The notes beneath the pieces are model-generated. The model was not told the DNA's origin, ran no database searches, and worked only from the letters and a program-made list of their open reading frames with translations. Shown in pieces: positions 1,459-37,405 of a stretch of DNA of 41,968 nt. The DNA is taken from the IMG/VR virus record IMGVR_UViG_2563366992_000001, positions 1 through 41,968 of that record, one strand, 5' to 3'. This DNA comes from a virus. Lineage: Duplodnaviria; Heunggongvirae; Uroviricota; Caudoviricetes. Within the stretch, counting starts at the first letter, position 1, and each line of letters starts with the position of its first letter. The translations under genes and the position numbers were made by a program.

Positions 1459-2622
1459 TTACACATCATTAGTACCTTCCTTATTTTTTGACTGGGACAA
1501 ATTTGGGACCGATGGGTTCAGGATCGAGTCTATTTGCCGTGCGTGTTCGGTAAGGTGATTAGGTGCAAGGTGAGCATATCGACGAACCATTTCGATAGAC
1601 TCCCAGCCACCCATTTCCTGTAACACTGACAACGGGACTCCGGCTTGAACCAGCCAACTTGCCCAGGTGTGTCTCAAGTCGTGAAATCTGAAATCATCAA
1701 TACCAGCTCGTCTCAGCGCCGCTTTCCAGGCTGTGTTTGCGTCATATCGCATCTTCCTTACTGTTGGCGCTTTCGTTCCGTCTGGTTTGGTACAGCTTTC
1801 CTTGTACACAAATACCCAACGGTGATGATTCCCGATTTGTTTTTTCAAAACGCGACATGCAGTATCATTCAGCGCAACGCCGATTGCGCGGTTTGATTTA
1901 CTCTCTTCCGGGTTTATCCATGCCACCCGGCGCTGCATATCTATTTGTTGCCATTCAAGGTTGATGATGTTCGAGCGTCTTAAACCTGTTGCCAGTGCAA
2001 ATTCAACAACAGACTTTAATGGCTCCGGACATTCATCAATCAGCCTTTGTGCTTCATGGGGCTCCAGCCAGCGGATCCGTTTATTCTTTGGTTGAGGCAC
2101 TTTAATAATTGGTGCCTTATCCAGCATTTTCCATTCACGCTCTGCGGCTCTTAGTAGGGCCTTTATAAATGAAAGATGCGTAGCCTTCGTTGCAACGGAC
2201 GCTGGTTTTGGCGTGTATTCTGGAACAGGTTTCCCTTTTTTTCTGCATGCTTCTGCCCTGAGTTTCCAGTTTTCCTCATGACGCCGGTTCGTCATTTTCT
2301 GCATTGCTGAATAAATTTTTGATTCAGTAATGTCTCTTAGTTGCATTCCTGCGAAATGTTGAAGCCAGAATCCGATCCGGCTTTTGTCATCGTCCAGTGA
2401 TTTTTTATGTGCTTTCTCTTCAAGCCACCTGACACACGCTTCCTCGAACGTTATATCAGGTATTTCACCAAGTTTGCTGACCCGCCATGCTTCAGCCTTT
2501 AGCTTGTCATGGAGTTCTGTCGCCTGCCTTTTGTCCTTTGTTCCAAGAGACTGTTTAAATCTTTTACCGTTCGGCAATGTGAAACTGGCGTACCATATTT
2601 CACCTCTGCGGAAGAGTGACAT
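1459..2622 (-). CDS. int: tyrosine integrase, lambda family
   Basis: 387-aa ORF with C-terminal catalytic motifs (HDLRHTWAS...VRRYAHL); adjacent to tRNA insertion site. Confidence 0.9.
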
Positions 2623-2849
2623 TTTCTTTCCTCTGTTATGCCATCACCCGCGCTCACCTGGACAGTATGCAGCGGAGACTGAAGAGCCGCAATGCAGGCT
2701 TGTCGTGTTGTGAGGTAAGGAGATTTATTCTTAGTGGGATCTTTGCGTGTTGCCTGAAGACGCCCTGTGCGTATCCAGTTAATGGCAGTCGGTCTGGATA
2801 TCTTGAGAAAATGACAGGCCTCATCGAGTGTGAGGCTGTATGGCTCCAT
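2499..2849 (-). CDS. xis: excisionase-like DNA-binding protein
   Basis: Internal ATG ([29 protein letters not shown]) of track ORF 2499..2933; HTH-like N-terminus; directly upstream of int with 3' overlap as in lambda xis/int. Confidence 0.5.
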
Positions 2850-5060: not shown

Positions 5061-5423
5061 TTAATGACCTGCTGCGCGGAGTTTTCCGTCAGGTTCACCG
5101 GCAAGAGTCAGTAATTGTCCCTGGTCTTCCTGCAGAATAGTCAGGCGACCACCGCGATTGACATACATCGGCGTTTCGGTGGTGTCTTCTTCGGAAATTT
5201 TCCCGCGGTTAGTCGGGCGAACATATGAGAGTTTGTGTTTGATTTTCACACGGTTCTCATCAAATGGTTCGATTTCCAGGTTGAGTGAGACCTTACCTTT
5301 GGTTTTCGTGTTCATCACACCGGAAGCGACTTCACTGAGAACTGCGCCGATTTTGGTTTCAAATACGCCGCCGTCCAGCTCCCCGATAAATGCCTGCACA
5401 TCAGTACTGCGTTCGCTAGCCAT
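5061..5423 (-). CDS. hypothetical phage protein
   Basis: Internal ATG (MASERSTDVQAF...) with GAGGAG RBS; upstream part of track ORF 5061..5741 is low-complexity and probably non-coding. Confidence 0.5.
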   Translation of the reverse strand: MASERSTDVQAFIGELDGGVFETKIGAVLSEVASGVMNTKTKGKVSLNLEIEPFDENRVKIKHKLSYVRPTNRGKISEEDTTETPMYVNRGGRLTILQEDQGQLLTLAGEPDGKLRAAGH

Positions 5424-5471
5424 TTTGCTGCTCCTCATCATATCGACCCTGCAAGGCCGATTAGTTTCTCC

Positions 5472-5660
5472 ACAAAACAGAGAAGAACACCTGCGGTAGC
5501 AGCCGCCCGGATGGATTGGGTTATGAGCCCGTCGTCCGGTGATGCTCTTCTCTGTTTTGTAAAAAGGACGGTACCAGCCGGAAGCAAGGGTACAAACTGG
5601 TACCGCCAGGACTACACACAGCATAAAGTTGTGGTGCCGGGTGCCTCCCGGTGCCTGGCG
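5472..5660. other. cluster of nested inverted repeats (candidate structured RNA or DNA site)
   Basis: 18-nt arms 5472..5489 and 5543..5560 (15 perfect bp + 1 mismatch + 2 bp); 8-bp perfect IR GGTACCAG/CTGGTACC 5570..5604; 7-bp IR CGCCAGG/CCTGGCG 5604..5660. Confidence 0.3.
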
Positions 5661-5860
5661 AAGGTTGCACACCAGACGGGTGGGTATCCACAGAAGGTCG
5701 ACTGTCAGCCTCAACCTTAACCCGCGTGCGCTGAGCCGCATTCACCACAACGCTAAGGATTCTCTTTGGTTGAAAATACTTAGCTGTTATGTGCCTGTCT
5801 TTTCACCACTTCAGGCTCGGTGGTATCCTTTTAAGCCCGTATACATAAAAGGAAAATCAA

Positions 5861-6106
5861 ATGACTTTTGATGAAAAAGAACTTGATAATGCAATTAATA
5901 AAATCATCGTAACGTCGCTCTTTTCCTGTCTCAGCGACACTCAGCAGAAACAGTTCTACGAATCGGCTTTCAACATGATCGAGCGTTGTTGTTTCTGCGA
6001 TGCCGACGAGTTACCTGAAAAAATCAGGAAACAGTTGGCTGATGCTCTTCGAGTGCGACTTTCTGACCAATTTTCTGAAATGTGCTCTCCGAATTTGGAC
6101 AAATAG
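5861..6106 (+). CDS. hypothetical small protein
   Basis: 81-aa ORF with AAAGGA RBS; helical-looking sequence. Confidence 0.45.
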   Translation: MTFDEKELDNAINKIIVTSLFSCLSDTQQKQFYESAFNMIERCCFCDADELPEKIRKQLADALRVRLSDQFSEMCSPNLDK

Positions 6107-6299
6107 AAAAAGGCCATTTCCATTCAGGGTCTGATGGAAATACTTCAGCCTGTTCCAAAGCACGGCGTAAAGAGAACACAACTCCAGCCATAATCTGATG
6201 TTTCCCATTGGTCCAGCTATCGCCGCTCTGATCTACAGGGGCGGCTATGTCGTATGACCAAACGACTTCACAGTTATTGTTTAAAATCTGGACTTTCAT
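6024..6299 (-). CDS. hypothetical small protein downstream of cI (rex-equivalent position)
   Basis: Internal ATG (MKVQIL...) with AGGTG RBS; same orientation as and immediately downstream of cI; 3' end overlaps convergent ORF 5861..6106. Confidence 0.4.
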   Translation of the reverse strand: MKVQILNNNCEVVWSYDIAAPVDQSGDSWTNGKHQIMAGVVFSLRRALEQAEVFPSDPEWKWPFSICPNSESTFQKIGQKVALEEHQPTVS

Positions 6300-6505
6300 T
6301 TCATACACCTGCTTTAACATGAGTGCCTGGTGGCACAACATGACTCAACGAATCATCCTGGACTTCATATGCCCCAGGCGGCTACTTCGTGGGCGTCCTG
6401 CCTGTTCGTTATCTTTGATATAAAATCTAACTTAACTTAGTTATTATGGCAAGAGAAAACACCAAACTTTTCTTAGTTCGGTGCCTTAGTTAGAGAAGAG
6501 AGGTC

Positions 6506-7132
6506 TTAGAGTTCGTATTGAACTCCTTTGACTACACCAATGATAAGGCAATTACCATTGATAGGGATGTTGGGATACCGAGGATTTAATGGCACTAAAA
6601 ACTTTTGAGGGCCATCGATGACTAATTTTTTTACTGTAGCTTCGTTTGTTCCATCAAGTCGAGCGATGACTATTTTTCCATGACGAGGTTCTGCATCTGG
6701 ATCTACAATCACTGTTGCGCCTTCTGGTATTGTTGGGAGGCCATTAGGGTTAGTCATGGAGTCACCTTTAACCTCTAATGCAAATGAGTTATCACCAATC
6801 TTTAATGATGTATCTACCCACTTGTCCACTTCACTAAACACTTCTGCTGCCCTGCACTCAGTAAACTGCCCAGCCTGAACCCACGATATTACAGGAACTC
6901 TGCGCATGTTTGTGACGAGTTTGCCTTCAAACTCAGCACCATAAAGAATGTAATCTATTGACGTATTGAAGAACTTCGCTAATTTCGAAAGTGCCTCCCC
7001 ACCAGGGGTATTGATGTCTTTCTCCCAGTACCCCACAGCAACGTCGCTTACTCCACAAAATTTACCCAATTCTTTCTGGGACGTTCCGGTAACTCTTCTC
7101 AGAGCTTTTATACGCTGACCAACCGTTTCCAT
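6506..7132 (-). CDS. cI: CI-type prophage repressor (HTH + S24 LexA-like peptidase domain)
   Basis: N-terminal HTH, C-terminal GDSM serine motif and downstream Lys; divergent from cro. Confidence 0.85.
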   Translation of the reverse strand: METVGQRIKALRRVTGTSQKELGKFCGVSDVAVGYWEKDINTPGGEALSKLAKFFNTSIDYILYGAEFEGKLVTNMRRVPVISWVQAGQFTECRAAEVFSEVDKWVDTSLKIGDNSFALEVKGDSMTNPNGLPTIPEGATVIVDPDAEPRHGKIVIARLDGTNEATVKKLVIDGPQKFLVPLNPRYPNIPINGNCLIIGVVKGVQYEL

Positions 7133-7229
7133 AGGAGCACCATTTCTTGAATTGCTAAGTAATCTTAGTTTTTATTGACCAAAGATAGATTTGTAATTAG
7201 CATCTAATAAAACTTAGTTTGGAGGGCGT
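7133..7229. promoter_or_regulatory. divergent immunity operator/promoter region (pRM/pR-like)
   Basis: Palindromes CTAAGTAATCTTAG (7155..7168) and ATTAGCATCTAAT (7196..7208); TTGACC -35-like hexamer 7175..7180; cI start codon has no SD (leaderless-like). Confidence 0.55.
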
Positions 7230-36815: not shown

Positions 36816-37370
36816 ATGCTTATTGGCTATGTACGTGTGTCAACAAATGACCAGAACACAGATCTACAACGTAATGCGCTGAACTGTGCAGGATGCGAGC
36901 TGATTTTTGAAGACAAGATAAGCGGTACAAAGTCCGAAAGGCCTGGACTGAAAAAACTGCTCAGGACATTATCGGCAGGTGACACTCTGGTTGTCTGGAA
37001 GCTGGATCGGCTGGGGCGTAGTATGCGGCATCTGGTCATTCTGGTTGAGGAGTTGCGCGAACGAGGCATCAACTTTCGTAGTCTGACGGATTCAATTGAT
37101 ACTAGTACCCCAATGGGGCGCTTTTTCTTTCATGTGATGGGTGCCCTGGCTGAAATGGAACGAGAACTGATTGTTGAACGAACAAAAGCTGGACTGGAAG
37201 CTGCTCGCGCACAGGGACGAATTGGTGGACGTCGTCCCAAACTTACACCAGAACAATGGGCGCAGGCCGGTCGATTAATTGCATCAGGCGTTCCTCGCCA
37301 GAAGGTGGCGATCATCTATGATGTTGGTATATCGACACTGTATAAGAAGTTTCCGGTCGGAGATAAATGA
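36816..37370 (+). CDS. pin: serine DNA invertase (Pin/Gin/Hin family)
   Basis: N-terminal GYVRVSTNDQ catalytic-Ser motif and C-terminal HTH; adjacent to the invertible segment. Confidence 0.9.
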   Translation: MLIGYVRVSTNDQNTDLQRNALNCAGCELIFEDKISGTKSERPGLKKLLRTLSAGDTLVVWKLDRLGRSMRHLVILVEELRERGINFRSLTDSIDTSTPMGRFFFHVMGALAEMERELIVERTKAGLEAARAQGRIGGRRPKLTPEQWAQAGRLIASGVPRQKVAIIYDVGISTLYKKFPVGDK

Positions 37371-37405
37371 AACCGTAGCACGTCGTATGCAAGATCGTGC
37401 TGCGG
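37353..37405. repeat. direct repeat copy A (pin 3' end plus hairpin)
   Basis: CCGGTCGGAGATAAATGAAACCGTAGCACGTCGTATGCAAGATCGTGCTGCGG; contains an 8-bp stem hairpin 37375..37403. Confidence 0.55.

What the first reader, a model, noticed from the sequence alone, without database searches (positions are those of the whole stretch)
5424..5860. 437-bp non-coding region packed with nested inverted repeats upstream of the leftward early operon
Between the first leftward early gene and the next ORF is an unusually long non-coding stretch for a phage. It contains an 18-nt near-perfect inverted repeat pair enclosing about 53 nt (5472..5560), followed by an 8-bp IR (5570..5604) and a 7-bp IR (5604..5660) and further GC-rich palindromes. 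None is followed by a U-tract, so they are not simple terminators. Track ORFs here are low-complexity and lack an RBS. This could be a structured non-coding RNA, a nut-like antitermination leader, or a protein-binding DNA site.
Basis: seen in the sequence. Interest (0 to 1): 0.5.

Follow-up and report, generated by a model that had tools for sequence, protein, structure and literature searches.

The report
Phage tRNA-like small RNA and leader
The "empty" 437 bases are the transcribed leader of the prophage's leftward early genes and hold a divergent copy of a known prophage small-RNA family (STnc100/PasD/sRNA-17) with its own terminator, followed by a conserved long hairpin; the kind of element is known, but its tRNA-like pseudoknotted fold does not appear in the papers I read.

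Summary
The inverted repeats are real and well beyond chance, but they belong to the minus strand, the strand of the leftward operon.

Reading 5'->3' on the minus strand, the region holds:
- a 124-nt multi-helix RNA core (5751-5628);
- a conserved single-stranded linker;
- a terminator (5607-5561);
- a 25-bp hairpin (5560-5472);
- a small hairpin, the Shine-Dalgarno sequence and the yfdP start.

The core is a divergent member of Rfam STnc100 (39.5 bits against a gathering score of 47; E 6e-7). Ninety distinct relatives give strong covariation for four helices, and 61 distinct members support a pseudoknot. The mEp460 counterpart in the same slot is the published 193-nt sRNA-17 of E. coli K1.

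The terminator-hairpin-yfdP leader is conserved with compensatory changes across at least 12 enterobacterial genera. In Phytobacter the slot holds a true tRNA-Ile with homologous flanks and a homologous acceptor helix, so the core looks tRNA-like.

Most likely the region yields a ~190-nt sRNA cut from the pL transcript and also gates read-through into yfdPQR. A lambda-type nut site is not supported here. It is a new variant of a known kind, of moderate interest.

The parts
5790..5824 (+). 35-nt block shared with lambda, P22, HK620 and others. In lambda it lies about 55-90 nt upstream of the rightward sieB gene. Here it lies upstream of the plus-strand ORF 5861-6106. It is probably the promoter/leader module of that moron gene and not part of the sRNA.
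   Evidence: The block matches at 91-94% in P22, lambda imm434, HK620 and others. The lambda annotation and sequence show its position relative to sieB. Two different reverse-strand ORFs follow the block in SfV-type loci. The promoter role is inference.
5752..5784 (-). 13-bp hairpin (GCUAAGUAUUUUC / GAGAAUCCUUAGC) immediately 5' of the closing helix. It takes the place of the boxA-like 5' flank seen in relatives.
   Evidence: Inverted repeat I5 and the minimum-free-energy fold. Comparison of 5' flanks across relatives.
5628..5751 (-). Core of the STnc100-superfamily RNA.
- P1: 5751-5743 paired with 5636-5628.
- J1/2: AAU, 5742-5740.
- P2: 5739-5735 paired with 5729-5728 and 5726-5724, bulged A at 5727, loop UCAGC.
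- Pseudoknot 5' strand: AAGGUUG, 5718-5712.
- P4: 5677-5670 paired with 5660-5653. Its loop (5669-5661) holds the pseudoknot 3' strand CAACCUU, 5667-5661.
- P5: 5651-5647 paired with 5641-5637, loop AGGCA.
   Evidence: - Rfam RF02076 scores 39.5 bits, E 6e-7.
- My own covariance model R1 scores 88.4 bits.
- Covariation: 89.8% of cells paired against 42-47% in the slid controls, and 21 of 27 pairs changed on both sides.
- Pseudoknot: at least 6 consecutive pairs in 90% of 61 distinct members against 27% with shuffled loops.
5608..5627 (-). Single-stranded linker UUUAUGCUGUGUGUAGUCCU. Its GCUGUGUGUAGUC part is conserved across genera. It is a candidate seed or Hfq-binding stretch.
   Evidence: It is unpaired in the fold. 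It is conserved in leaders of Scandinavium, Superficieibacter, Phytobacter and others. The seed role is inference. No complementary site beyond chance was found in the window.
5561..5607 (-). Intrinsic terminator: an 11-13 bp stem (5607-5597 paired with 5577-5567), then C and UUUUU (5565-5561). This is the predicted 3' end of the sRNA.
   Evidence: - Stability is -20.5 kcal/mol, z = -3.88.
- 70 of 74 distinct family members have a terminator, mostly 32-66 nt after the core.
- The 3' RACE end of sRNA-17 falls in the homologous U-tract.
5472..5560 (-). Long hairpin in the yfdP leader: a 25-bp stem with a branched top containing the conserved GACGGGCUCAUAACCCAAUCC. In read-through RNA the stem extends to U-tract 5565-5561 paired with GGAGA 5471-5467. 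It is a candidate RNase III or stability/translation element.
   Evidence: z = -8.73. RNAalifold on 22 leaders from at least 12 genera predicts 28 pairs, 13 of them with compensatory changes. The RNase III role is inference.
5421..5461 (-). Small hairpin (5461-5454 paired with 5449-5442), Shine-Dalgarno GAGGAG (5436-5431) and the yfdP start codon (5423-5421).
   Evidence: Sequence and fold. A hairpin is conserved in this position in the other leaders.
6424..6452 (-). Candidate pL promoter (TTGCCA, 17 nt, TAGATT). It overlaps a CI operator-like CTAAnnnnnnCTTAG site and is the probable source of the transcript that carries the element.
   Evidence: Promoter scan. Operator-like repeats occur at 6427-6440 and 6463-6476 and also in OR at 7155-7168 and 7204-7217. 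Homologous pL plus operators are seen in mEp460 and ST64B. Not tested experimentally.

Best explanation
The region is the untranslated leader of the prophage's leftward early operon, read on the minus strand. Transcription probably starts at the CI-controlled pL near 6424-6452 and passes orf33. It then makes a ~124-nt compact RNA domain (5751-5628) of the STnc100/PasD/sRNA-17 superfamily. The domain has a closing helix P1, hairpins P2, P4 and P5, a pseudoknot between the segment after P2 and the P4 loop, and the invariant J1/2 AAU and P5 loop AGGCA.

A 20-nt single-stranded linker and an intrinsic terminator follow. Most transcripts should end at about 5561, which would give a ~190-nt small RNA. 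Its 5' end would be cut at the base of P1, as in the mapped homologue sRNA-17. By analogy with PasD, this RNA would act in trans with Hfq.

Transcripts that escape the terminator continue through a conserved 25-bp hairpin into yfdP-yfdQ-yfdR...xis-int. The module therefore also gates early-left gene expression.

Shown: the strand, the helices and pseudoknot, the terminator, the conservation of the whole leader, and family membership at sub-threshold level. Inferred: the promoter, 5' processing (possibly by RNase P, because the fold is tRNA-like), Hfq-dependent trans action, and RNase III cutting of the long hairpin.
For: **Strand and family**
- Rfam STnc100 matches the minus strand at 5773-5558: 39.5 bits, E 6e-7 locally and 2.8e-5 for the whole window.
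- Canonical members found with the shared motif score 57-161 bits on the same model.
- The minus strand folds better than the plus strand: -176.5 against -156.1 kcal/mol, z -6.17 against -3.63.

**Structure**
- A motif scan returned 120 viral loci with 74 distinct cores.
- On the CM-based alignment of 90 distinct sequences, 89.8% of cells are paired. Shuffled columns give 77.0% and the slid controls 42-47%.
- 21 of 27 pairs change on both sides. The covariation score is 0.353 against 0.135, reached by 0 of 500 shuffles.
- The P1 extension covaries.
- The pseudoknot covaries as different sequence pairs in different subfamilies.

**Terminator**
- 70 of 74 distinct members have one. The window's terminator has -20.5 kcal/mol and five U.

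**Experimental anchor**
- sRNA-17 of E. coli K1 was mapped by 5'/3' RACE and Northern blot at 193 nt.
- Its full-length primers place its 5' end at CGUUGUGGUGAAU and its 3' end in the terminator U-tract of the mEp460 element, in the same slot (PMC7719688).
- The window shares P1, the linker, the terminator and the hairpin with it. Identity is about 95% over 5424-5608.
- Replacing sRNA-17 with a cat cassette raised yfdP about 95-fold.
- The authors' qRT-PCR amplicon begins 240 nt upstream of the mature 5' end, so a longer precursor exists.

**Related transcriptome**
- In ST64B the region after cI is transcribed in this direction and is induced together with the lytic genes (PMC7067206).

**Leader conservation**
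- The terminator, long hairpin, small hairpin and Shine-Dalgarno sequence are conserved upstream of yfdP homologues in at least 12 genera. 13 of 28 hairpin pairs show compensatory changes.

**Family properties from the literature**
- PasD sRNAs are stabilised by Hfq and have many RIL-seq partners (PMC8550237).
- PasD is structurally related to STnc100 (bioRxiv 10.64898/2026.05.13.724894).
Against: - The Rfam score is below the curated gathering score (39.5 against 47).
- No transcript data exist for this exact variant.
- No convincing sigma-70 promoter lies next to the core, unlike in many canonical members. The sRNA's 5' end therefore depends on an unproven processing step.
- A hairpin (5784-5752) overlaps the predicted 5' end.
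- The yfdP increase in the sRNA-17 mutant may come from the inserted cat cassette and not from loss of the element.
- No target site for the linker was found in the window.
- The P1 and Buttiauxella copies have no terminator and sit directly before a gene. The core can therefore also work as a cis leader element.
Confidence: 0.72

Rival explanations
1. The core is a tRNA mimic. It would be derived from a phage tRNA gene, excised by RNase P, and would act through its tRNA-like shape (for example as a decoy for tRNA-targeting host nucleases or tRNA-binding enzymes) and not by base-pairing as an Hfq sRNA.
For: - In Phytobacter prophages the same slot holds a real tRNA-Ile(aat) (ARAGORN).
- That tRNA has a homologous 5' flank. 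Its acceptor helix GUUGUGGCG/CGCCGCAAC differs from P1 GUUGUGGUG/CACCACAAC by a compensatory pair.
- Its T-arm aligns with P5, and the linker, terminator and hairpin are the same.
- P5 abuts the 3' strand of P1 as a T-arm abuts the acceptor stem. P1 plus P5 is about 12-14 bp.
- The 5' end of sRNA-17 lies at the base of P1.
- 23 of 80 canonical members have a same-strand tRNA within 1.5 kb upstream, and none has an opposite-strand tRNA there. Mixed tRNA-STnc100 arrays occur.
- The P1 copy lies in the ban operon together with three tRNAs.
Against: - Neither ARAGORN nor the Rfam tRNA model recognises the core.
- The P5 loop has 5 nt, not 7. There is no CCA end and no anticodon-like arm.
- The similarity to the Phytobacter tRNA could reflect module exchange at conserved flanks.
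- No decoy target is known.
Confidence: 0.12
2. The element is a cis-acting processive antitermination or anti-Rho leader, nut-, put- or rrn-boxA-like. It would modify RNA polymerase so that the long untranslated pL leader and the downstream terminators are read through.
For: - It lies in a 0.7-1 kb untranslated or sparsely translated leader between pL and the first conserved early gene, upstream of one (SfV) or two (ST64B) terminators.
- No N-like gene is recognisable.
- In P1, L124, L145, L147, L137, L139 and others an rrn-boxA-like UGCUCUUU sits directly 5' of the closing helix.
- P1 and Buttiauxella carry the core without a terminator, directly before a gene.
Against: - The boxA-like motif is degenerate in this window (AAUCCUUAGC).
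- I saw no boxB-type hairpin in the sequence or the predicted folds.
- The architecture differs from the two-stem ~70-nt put RNA described in PMC9378689.
- Most family members are stand-alone genes with their own promoter and an evidently working terminator. They are seen as discrete RNAs (PasD, sRNA-17).
- They co-occur with Q proteins, which already provide antitermination.
Confidence: 0.1
3. The region encodes one or more small proteins. RefSeq lists a 'frameshifted hypothetical protein' at 5438-5748 (minus strand), and several phage records annotate ORFs here. The repeats would then be incidental.
For: - RefSeq and phage records annotate hypothetical proteins over the region.
- The 49-aa ORF 5438-5587 matches phrog_33599.
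- Long stop-free stretches exist on both strands.
Against: - There are no Pfam hits.
- The PHROG is built from the same automatic annotations.
- Indels between SfV, ST64B and mEp460 are 1 nt and 19 nt.
- Core lengths are spread over all three residues mod 3 (41/31/18), and only 54-60 of 90 cores have any open frame.
- Substitutions keep RNA pairing, including G-U, and not codons.
- RefSeq itself can call the ORF only as frameshifted.
Confidence: 0.03
4. The repeats act at the DNA level, as a protein-binding site, a cruciform, or a recombination or replication site.
For: The arms are long and nearly perfect. A mosaic boundary lies at about 5608, the end of the terminator.
Against: - The mismatched positions are G-U on one strand only.
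- Covariation keeps pairing while the sequence changes completely, as in the Providencia hairpins. That is expected for RNA and not for a protein-recognised DNA sequence.
- Homologues are transcribed.
Confidence: 0.03

Closest known systems
Rfam RF02076 STnc100 (gammaproteobacterial prophage sRNA) and the related PasD1/PasD2 sRNAs of EPEC
   Same: - The helices P1, P2, P4 and P5 are the same.
- UGGUGAAU and CACCGGGAGGCACCCGGCACCA are identical.
- An intrinsic terminator lies 20-70 nt after the core, giving an RNA of about 200 nt, encoded on a prophage.
   Different: - The score is below the Rfam gathering score.
- The P2 sequence is replaced through compensatory changes (GCGGC..GC-A-CGC in place of CCCCC..GG-A-GGG).
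- The middle part is different.
- It lies in the early-left operon leader upstream of yfdP, whereas canonical members lie between Q and the lysis genes.
- There is no adjacent sigma-70 promoter.
- No expression or Hfq data exist for this clade.
sRNA-17 of E. coli K1 RS218 (mEp460-like prophage; Sun et al. 2020, PMC7719688)
   Same: - It occupies the same slot between the immunity region and yfdP.
- The closing helix GUUGUGGUG/CACCACAAC is identical, as are J1/2 AAU, the linker end, the terminator, the long hairpin and the yfdP leader. Identity is about 95% over 5424-5608.
- The predicted length is the same, about 192-193 nt.
   Different: - The interior of the core is a different mosaic module. 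P2 is GCGC-AGGCUGAU-GCGC and P5 is CCGG-AGAUCAGCA-CCGG, with six complementary loop bases.
- My model scores it at only 27 bits.
- The authors found no Rfam homologue and treated it as an ArcA-regulated stand-alone sRNA.
Phage-encoded tRNA genes in operon leaders (for example tRNA-Ile in Phytobacter prophages, and the tRNAs of the P1 ban operon and of Stx-phage late operons)
   Same: - It occupies the same position with the same flanks.
- The closing/acceptor helix is homologous.
- A 5-bp hairpin abuts the 3' strand of that helix.
- It is co-linear with tRNA genes.
   Different: It is not recognised as a tRNA by ARAGORN or by the Rfam tRNA model. It has no anticodon arm, no 7-nt T-loop and no CCA end, and it has an extra pseudoknot.
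Lambda N-leader (nutL, the RNase III site and the N ribosome-binding site) and HK022 putL
   Same: It is a structured untranslated leader just downstream of pL, with terminators ahead of the early-left genes. A long duplex lies just before the first ribosome-binding site, like the RNase III hairpin of the lambda N leader (from my own knowledge of lambda).
   Different: - There is no boxB and no N.
- The boxA-like motif is degenerate here.
- The fold is unlike the two-stem put RNA.
- The element is followed by a terminator that evidently works in relatives.

Membership tests
Rfam RF02076 STnc100 | Reaches the curated gathering score (47 bits) of the covariance model | tested here: not met
   The score is 39.5 bits. 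E is 6e-7 in the 900-nt search and 2.8e-5 for the whole window. Canonical members score 57-161 bits.
Rfam RF02076 STnc100 | Shared helices (closing helix, 5' hairpin with bulged A, penultimate hairpin, CCGGG-AGGCA-CCCGG hairpin) and invariant UGGUGAAU | tested here: met
   All are present at 5751-5628. My own model R1 scores the window at 88.4 bits. Covariation over 90 distinct sequences supports the helices.
Rfam RF02076 STnc100 | Intrinsic terminator shortly after the core | tested here: met
   The U-tract starts 66 nt after the core, with -20.5 kcal/mol and five U.
Rfam RF02076 STnc100 | Location in the late region (between Q and the lysis, nanS-p or stx genes), with its own promoter | tested here: not met
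   The window copy lies between orf33 / ORF 5861-6106 and yfdP in the early-left operon. No promoter-like site lies next to it.
Rfam RF02076 STnc100 / PasD | Expressed as a discrete Hfq-associated RNA | not testable with these tools
   Only literature on relatives is available: PasD (PMC8550237) and sRNA-17 (PMC7719688).
sRNA-17 (E. coli K1) | Same genomic slot, with shared closing helix, linker end and terminator | tested here: met
   The alignment with mEp460 shows about 95% identity over 5424-5608 and an identical P1. The published primers map onto the mEp460 sequence.
sRNA-17 (E. coli K1) | Sequence identity of the RNA body | tested here: not met
   Homology breaks at about 5608. The mEp460 core scores only 27 bits on R1, and its P2 and P5 differ.
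Lambda-type nut site | boxA (CGCUCUUA / UGCUCUUU) followed by a boxB hairpin, and an N-like protein | tested here: not met
   - The flank in the window is AAUCCUUAGC, whereas relatives carry UGCUCUUU.
- No 5-bp stem with a GNRA-like pentaloop follows in the sequence or the folds.
- No N-like family match was found for the neighbouring ORFs.
HK022 put RNA | A ~70-nt two-stem RNA directly after the promoter that suppresses downstream terminators without protein factors | tested here: inconclusive
   The topology differs, being a five-helix pseudoknotted domain (the put description is from PMC9378689). I did not compare the sequence with put. The function cannot be tested here.
tRNA | Cloverleaf recognised by tRNA detectors, 7-nt T-loop, anticodon arm | tested here: not met
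   ARAGORN finds only tRNA-Thr at 1369-1444 in the window. There is no Rfam tRNA match at 5200-6100 even at E <= 10.
tRNA-like element (structural mimic) | Acceptor-like closing helix stacked on a T-arm-like hairpin, interchangeable with a tRNA gene | tested here: met
   P5 abuts the 3' strand of P1. A tRNA-Ile occupies the slot in Phytobacter, with homologous flanks and helix. Cleavage by RNase P was not testable.

The most novel reading that the evidence does not exclude
The whole STnc100/PasD/sRNA-17 superfamily, present in a large share of E. coli prophages and often in tandem arrays next to tRNA genes, would not be an ordinary Hfq sRNA family. It would be a class of tRNA-derived, pseudoknotted tRNA-like RNAs. 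RNase P would release them from phage operon transcripts at the base of an acceptor-like helix. The conserved globular domain would have a function of its own, such as a tRNA decoy against host tRNA-targeting defences or a binding platform for a host factor. The variable inserts and the linker would carry the specificity.
Probability: 0.15. Interest if true: 0.75.

Novelty: new variant of a known kind. Interest (0 to 1): 0.5.

Why it matters
**How common it is.** Sequence matching this region occurs in 2785 of 5426 complete E. coli genomes, and 1814 of them carry at least 80% of it. It is also in SfV, SfII, SfIV and ST64B. Records annotate it as nothing, or as a broken hypothetical gene.

**What the analysis links.**
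- It ties a stretch that most records leave unannotated to a described RNA family.
- It connects three literatures that I did not find linked in the papers I read: STnc100, PasD and sRNA-17.
- It shows that the first conserved gene block of the early-left operon (yfdPQR) lies behind an sRNA-terminator-hairpin gate conserved across Enterobacterales.

**Structural findings that can be tested directly.** I did not see these mentioned in the papers I read:
- a covarying pseudoknot;
- a P5 hairpin that abuts the closing helix as a T-arm abuts an acceptor stem;
- a true tRNA in the same slot in Phytobacter;
- tandem arrays together with tRNA genes.

Together these give a hypothesis for why a family of "sRNAs" carries a 110-130-nt invariant scaffold.

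**Practical consequence.** Rfam's threshold misses this clade and the P1 and mEp460 clades. A rebuilt model would improve prophage annotation.

Tried and rejected
- **Rfam at gathering threshold on the whole window.** Only tRNA-Thr was found. The STnc100 match appeared only in E-value mode.
- **Weak Rfam matches.** DicF, ftsZ-DE, hairpin ribozyme, mir-9412 and cyano-S1 scored 15-21 bits and were treated as chance.
- **K-12 as an experimental reference.** CPS-53 has lost the immunity region and the element, and DLP12 has none.
- **STnc1310 of ST64B as the counterpart.** It maps to a separate terminated RNA about 70 nt upstream of the core, not to the core.
- **A promoter inside 5424-5560 or next to the core.** Nothing convincing was found by the scan or by eye.
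- **The 7-bp repeat 5604-5610/5654-5660 as an antiterminator pairing (P4 3' arm against terminator 5' arm).** By eye it is not conserved in ST64B or in canonical members, so I dropped it.
- **A target for the linker inside the phage.** Only the self-match appeared, and the rest was at chance level.
- **Counting pseudoknot pairs on the MAFFT alignment.** The loop columns were out of register, so I used a per-sequence complementarity test with a shuffled-loop control instead.
- **Stop-codon-free frames as a coding test.** This is uninformative in such G+C-rich sequence, so I relied on indel phase and covariation.
- **Pfam and PHROG searches of the local ORFs.** Only families of unknown function were hit.
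- **RS218 genome record.** It is not in the held collection. I mapped sRNA-17 through the published primers instead.
Full report
**Setting.** The window is an SfV-type prophage. The finding region is 99.8% identical to phage SfV and lies downstream of a tRNA-Thr (1369-1444). On the standard map the order is:
- int-xis ... yfdR, yfdQ, yfdP/orf32 (5061-5423, minus strand);
- the finding (5424-5860);
- a plus-strand 81-aa ORF (5861-6106), overlapped at its end by the annotated minus-strand orf33 (6024-6299);
- cI (6506-7132, minus strand) and cro.

Sequence matching the 437 bases occurs in 2785 of 5426 complete E. coli genomes, and 1814 of them carry at least 80% of it.

**Observation.**
- All three named inverted repeats exist.
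- Both strands fold better than shuffled sequence. The minus strand is clearly better: -176.5 kcal/mol and z -6.17, against -156.1 kcal/mol and z -3.63.
- The four non-Watson-Crick positions in the 25-nt arms of the big repeat are G-U on the minus strand.
The hairpin 5607-5567 (-20.5 kcal/mol) is followed by C-UUUUU-AC.
- The built-in terminator scan missed it, presumably because its loop (about 15 nt in the centroid fold) exceeds the scan's 3-8 nt limit.

**What the core is.**
- In E-value mode Rfam matches STnc100 (RF02076) on the minus strand at 5773-5558, over the full model length. The score is 39.5 bits against a gathering score of 47, with E 6e-7.
- ST64B and phage 118970_sal3 give the same sub-threshold match at the same position.
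- I scanned viral contigs for the two invariant blocks, UGGUGAAU ... CCGGGAGGCACCCGGCACCA. This returned 120 loci with 74 distinct cores of 103-132 nt.
- Canonical members among them score 57-161 bits on RF02076, so this is the STnc100 family.

The common architecture is as follows:
- closing helix P1, then AAU;
- hairpin P2, with 5 bp, a bulged A and loop UNNGC;
- a variable middle;
- a 8-9 bp hairpin P4, then A;
- hairpin P5 (CCGGG-AGGCA-CCCGG), which abuts the 3' strand of P1.

**Covariation.**
- I built a covariance model on 51 sequences (R1). It found 126 and 44 matches in the held loci.
- On the resulting alignment of 90 distinct rows, 89.8% of cells are paired. Shuffled columns give 77.0% and the slid controls 42-47%.
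- 21 of 27 pairs change on both sides. The covariation score is 0.353 against 0.135, reached by 0 of 500 shuffles.
- This alignment was fitted to the model, which favours the structure. The slid controls and the independent count on the P1 extension argue that the signal is real.
- The SfV clade differs from canonical members in P2 by three compensatory pair swaps. This is one reason the Rfam model scores it poorly.

**Pseudoknot.** The segment just after P2 is complementary to the P4 loop, and the pairing changes identity between subfamilies. Examples:
- CCAGUC/GACUGG;
- CUGGUG/CACCGG;
- UAUCAGCGC/GUGCUGAUA;
- AGACUGACAAA/UUUGUCAGUCU;
- AAGGUUG (5718-5712) / CAACCUU (5667-5661) in this window;
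- UGGUUAU/AUAACCA in P1.

At least six consecutive pairs occur in 90% of 61 distinct members, against 27% with shuffled loops. I did not see this feature mentioned in the papers I read.

**Terminator and gene type.**
- 70 of 74 distinct members have an intrinsic terminator, mostly 32-66 nt after the core.
- Many have a sigma-70 promoter that ends a few bases before P1.
- Most lie between a Q antiterminator gene and holin, endolysin or nanS-p genes.
- They often occur in tandem arrays: four copies in L010, and three plus two in L048 around the lysis cassette.
- 23 of 80 have a same-strand tRNA within 1.5 kb upstream, and none has an opposite-strand tRNA there.
- The window copy differs. It has no adjacent promoter and lies in the early-left operon.

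**Literature anchors.**
- A 2026 preprint (10.64898/2026.05.13.724894) reports that STnc100 is structurally related to the EPEC sRNAs PasD1 and PasD2.
- PasD1/2 depend on Hfq for stability and have many RIL-seq partners (PMC8550237). Their function is unknown.
- More directly, sRNA-17 of E. coli K1 RS218 was mapped at 193 nt by 5'/3' RACE and confirmed by Northern blot. It lies in an mEp460-like prophage (PMC7719688).
- Its full-length primers are CGTTGTGGTGAATGCGCAGGCTGATGCGCGAAA and AAAAGAGCGGTACCAGCCGGAAGCAAGTGTAC. They place its 5' end one to two bases before the closing helix and its 3' end in the terminator U-tract of the mEp460 element (L005 2832->2640).
- mEp460 and the window share P1, the end of the linker, the terminator, the long hairpin and the yfdP leader, at about 95% identity over 5424-5608. 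They differ in the interior of the core, which is a mosaic module.
- The equivalent RNA here would run from about 5752 to about 5561.
- The authors found no Rfam relative. My model links the two at 27 bits.
- Their qRT-PCR amplicon starts 240 nt upstream of the mature 5' end, so a longer precursor exists. Their cat replacement raised yfdP about 95-fold. That increase is compatible with a gate, but it is confounded by the cassette.
- In ST64B the corresponding region is transcribed towards yfdP and is induced together with the lytic genes. A separate terminated RNA, STnc1310, lies just upstream of the core (PMC7067206).

**The rest of the leader.**
- A scan of species-representative genomes with YfdP gave 31 loci.
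- The same order is found upstream of yfdP in Mangrovibacter, Enterobacter, Atlantibacter, Leclercia, Superficieibacter, Kosakonia, Phytobacter, Scandinavium, Pseudocitrobacter and Providencia. The order is: linker, terminator ending in UUUUUAC, long hairpin, GUGGAGAAACUAAC, small hairpin, Shine-Dalgarno sequence.
- RNAalifold on 22 leaders predicts 28 pairs for the long hairpin, 13 of them with compensatory changes. Examples are CAGAGAAGAGC/GUUCUUCUCUG, CACACAAGGGC/GCCCUUUUGUG and CAUGUGAGCGC/GCUCUCACAUG. The Providencia hairpin has an entirely different sequence.
- The base of the hairpin pairs the terminator U-tract with GGAGA (5471-5467).
- A 25-bp duplex just before a ribosome-binding site suggests RNase III processing or control of stability or translation. 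This is inference.

**tRNA connection.**
- In two Phytobacter loci the slot of the core is occupied by a tRNA-Ile(aat) detected by ARAGORN.
- Its 5' flank (AGUGCUCUUUCC) is homologous. Its acceptor helix GUUGUGGCG/CGCCGCAAC differs from P1 GUUGUGGUG/CACCACAAC by a compensatory U-A to C-G change.
- Its T-arm aligns with P5. The linker, terminator and hairpin that follow are homologous.
- P1's copy has the compensatory variant GUUGCGGUG/CACCGCAAC. It lies, unannotated, in the C1-controlled ban operon with three tRNAs, directly before tciA and without a terminator.
- Taken with the position of P5 against P1 and the 5' end of sRNA-17 at the base of P1, this suggests that the core is tRNA-like. It also suggests that RNase P may make its 5' end.
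- The core is not a tRNA by ARAGORN or by the Rfam tRNA model.

**Promoter and the nut question.**
- A pL candidate (TTGCCA-17-TAGATT, 6452-6424) overlaps CTAAnnnnnnCTTAG repeats that recur in OR. mEp460 and ST64B have equivalent pL-operator arrangements just after cI.
- No N-like gene or boxB is evident.
- Relatives carry an rrn-boxA-like UGCUCUUU directly 5' of the closing helix, but the window has AAUCCUUAGC there.
- A lambda-type nut site is therefore not supported here. A Nus-dependent anti-Rho role in relatives remains possible.

**Coding.**
- There are no Pfam matches.
- The one PHROG match derives from automatic annotations.
- Indels between relatives are 1 nt and 19 nt, and core lengths fall in all three classes mod 3.
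- Substitutions preserve pairing.
- RefSeq can annotate the ORF only as frameshifted.

**Verdict.** The finding is real.
- It is a divergent, early-operon clade of a known prophage sRNA family, joined to a conserved terminator-hairpin leader.
- The best-supported mechanism is a pL-derived, terminator-ended ~190-nt sRNA that also gates read-through into yfdPQR. Confidence is about 0.7 for the anatomy and the gate, and lower for trans action.
- The tRNA-like, pseudoknotted fold is the most interesting open lead.

Noticed in passing
window 6349-6408 (minus strand): A ~60-nt block just downstream of the candidate pL (aacgaacaggcaggacgcccacgaagtagccgcctgggg...) is 84-95% conserved in unannotated DNA. 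It lies right after cI, or at the start of the early-left operon, in phages of Salmonella, Citrobacter, Yersinia, Pantoea, Klebsiella and Pectobacterium. The Providencia phage matches were not placed relative to cI or the early-left operon. There is no Rfam match, and the fold z is only -0.55. It could be a protein or Nus-factor site.
   Followed up: partly
window 6424-6476 and 7155-7217: Four copies of a CTAAnnnnnnCTTAG motif look like CI operators. Two overlap the candidate pL (6427-6440, 6463-6476) and two lie between cI and cro (7155-7168, 7204-7217).
   Followed up: partly
window 5861-6106 (+) versus 6024-6299 (-): A plus-strand 81-aa ORF with a good Shine-Dalgarno sequence (phrog_3311) overlaps the 3' end of the annotated minus-strand orf33 (phrog_3195) by 83 nt. 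RefSeq and the SfV record annotate only orf33. A hairpin followed by a U-run on the minus strand (6145-6100) lies inside orf33.
   Followed up: partly
window 5790-5824: A 35-nt block is shared at 91-94% with lambda, P22, HK620 and others. In lambda it lies just upstream of the rightward sieB gene. P22 sieB is known to be controlled by the antisense sas RNA made from the pL direction. The block may mark a portable moron promoter/leader.
   Followed up: partly
L010 2265-3380 (-); L048 4349-5513 and 8357-8555 (+); L018, L023, L017: STnc100-family genes occur as tandem arrays of 3-5 diverged copies, each with its own terminator. They often lie directly after 2-3 tRNA genes and around the holin-endolysin-Rz cassette.
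   Followed up: partly
L126 2077-2204 (phage P1, NC_005856 about 70076-70203, +): Phage P1 carries an unannotated copy of the element (78 bits on my model, with no Rfam match at E <= 0.001). It lies between upl and tciA in the ban operon, has no terminator, and ends 25 nt before the tciA start.
   Followed up: partly
L147 and L152 922-1000 (+) (Phytobacter ursingii): A tRNA-Ile with the unusual anticodon AAT occupies the slot of the sRNA core upstream of yfdP. It has the same linker, terminator and long hairpin downstream.
   Followed up: yes
5' flank of the closing helix in L126, L124, L145, L147, L137, L139, L005 and others: An rrn-boxA-like UGCUCUUU/UGCUCUCU motif sits immediately 5' of GUUGUGG in most yfdP-leader and P1-type copies. 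It is degenerate in the window and in ST64B.
   Followed up: partly
L149, L151, L139 (Kosakonia, Atlantibacter), about 60 nt before the linker: 'Mini' versions keep GUUGUGGUGAAU and an approximate closing strand (..CACCACACAAC in Kosakonia..CCCACAAC in Atlantibacter) around a much shorter interior. My model does not detect them at E < 0.1.
   Followed up: no
L003 5231-5307 (+) (ST64B): An isrK match above threshold (64.3 bits) and a c4-a1b1-like match lie in the rightward operon of ST64B.
   Followed up: no
window 37348-37404 (+): A sub-threshold Rfam match to CssrB (32.4 bits against a gathering score of 76, E 0.006).
   Followed up: no
L005 2758-3126 (+) (mEp460 gp37) and 2573-2716 (+) (gp36): Two annotated hypothetical genes of mEp460 lie on the opposite strand over the experimentally mapped sRNA-17 and its terminator/hairpin. 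They are probably mis-annotations.
   Followed up: partly
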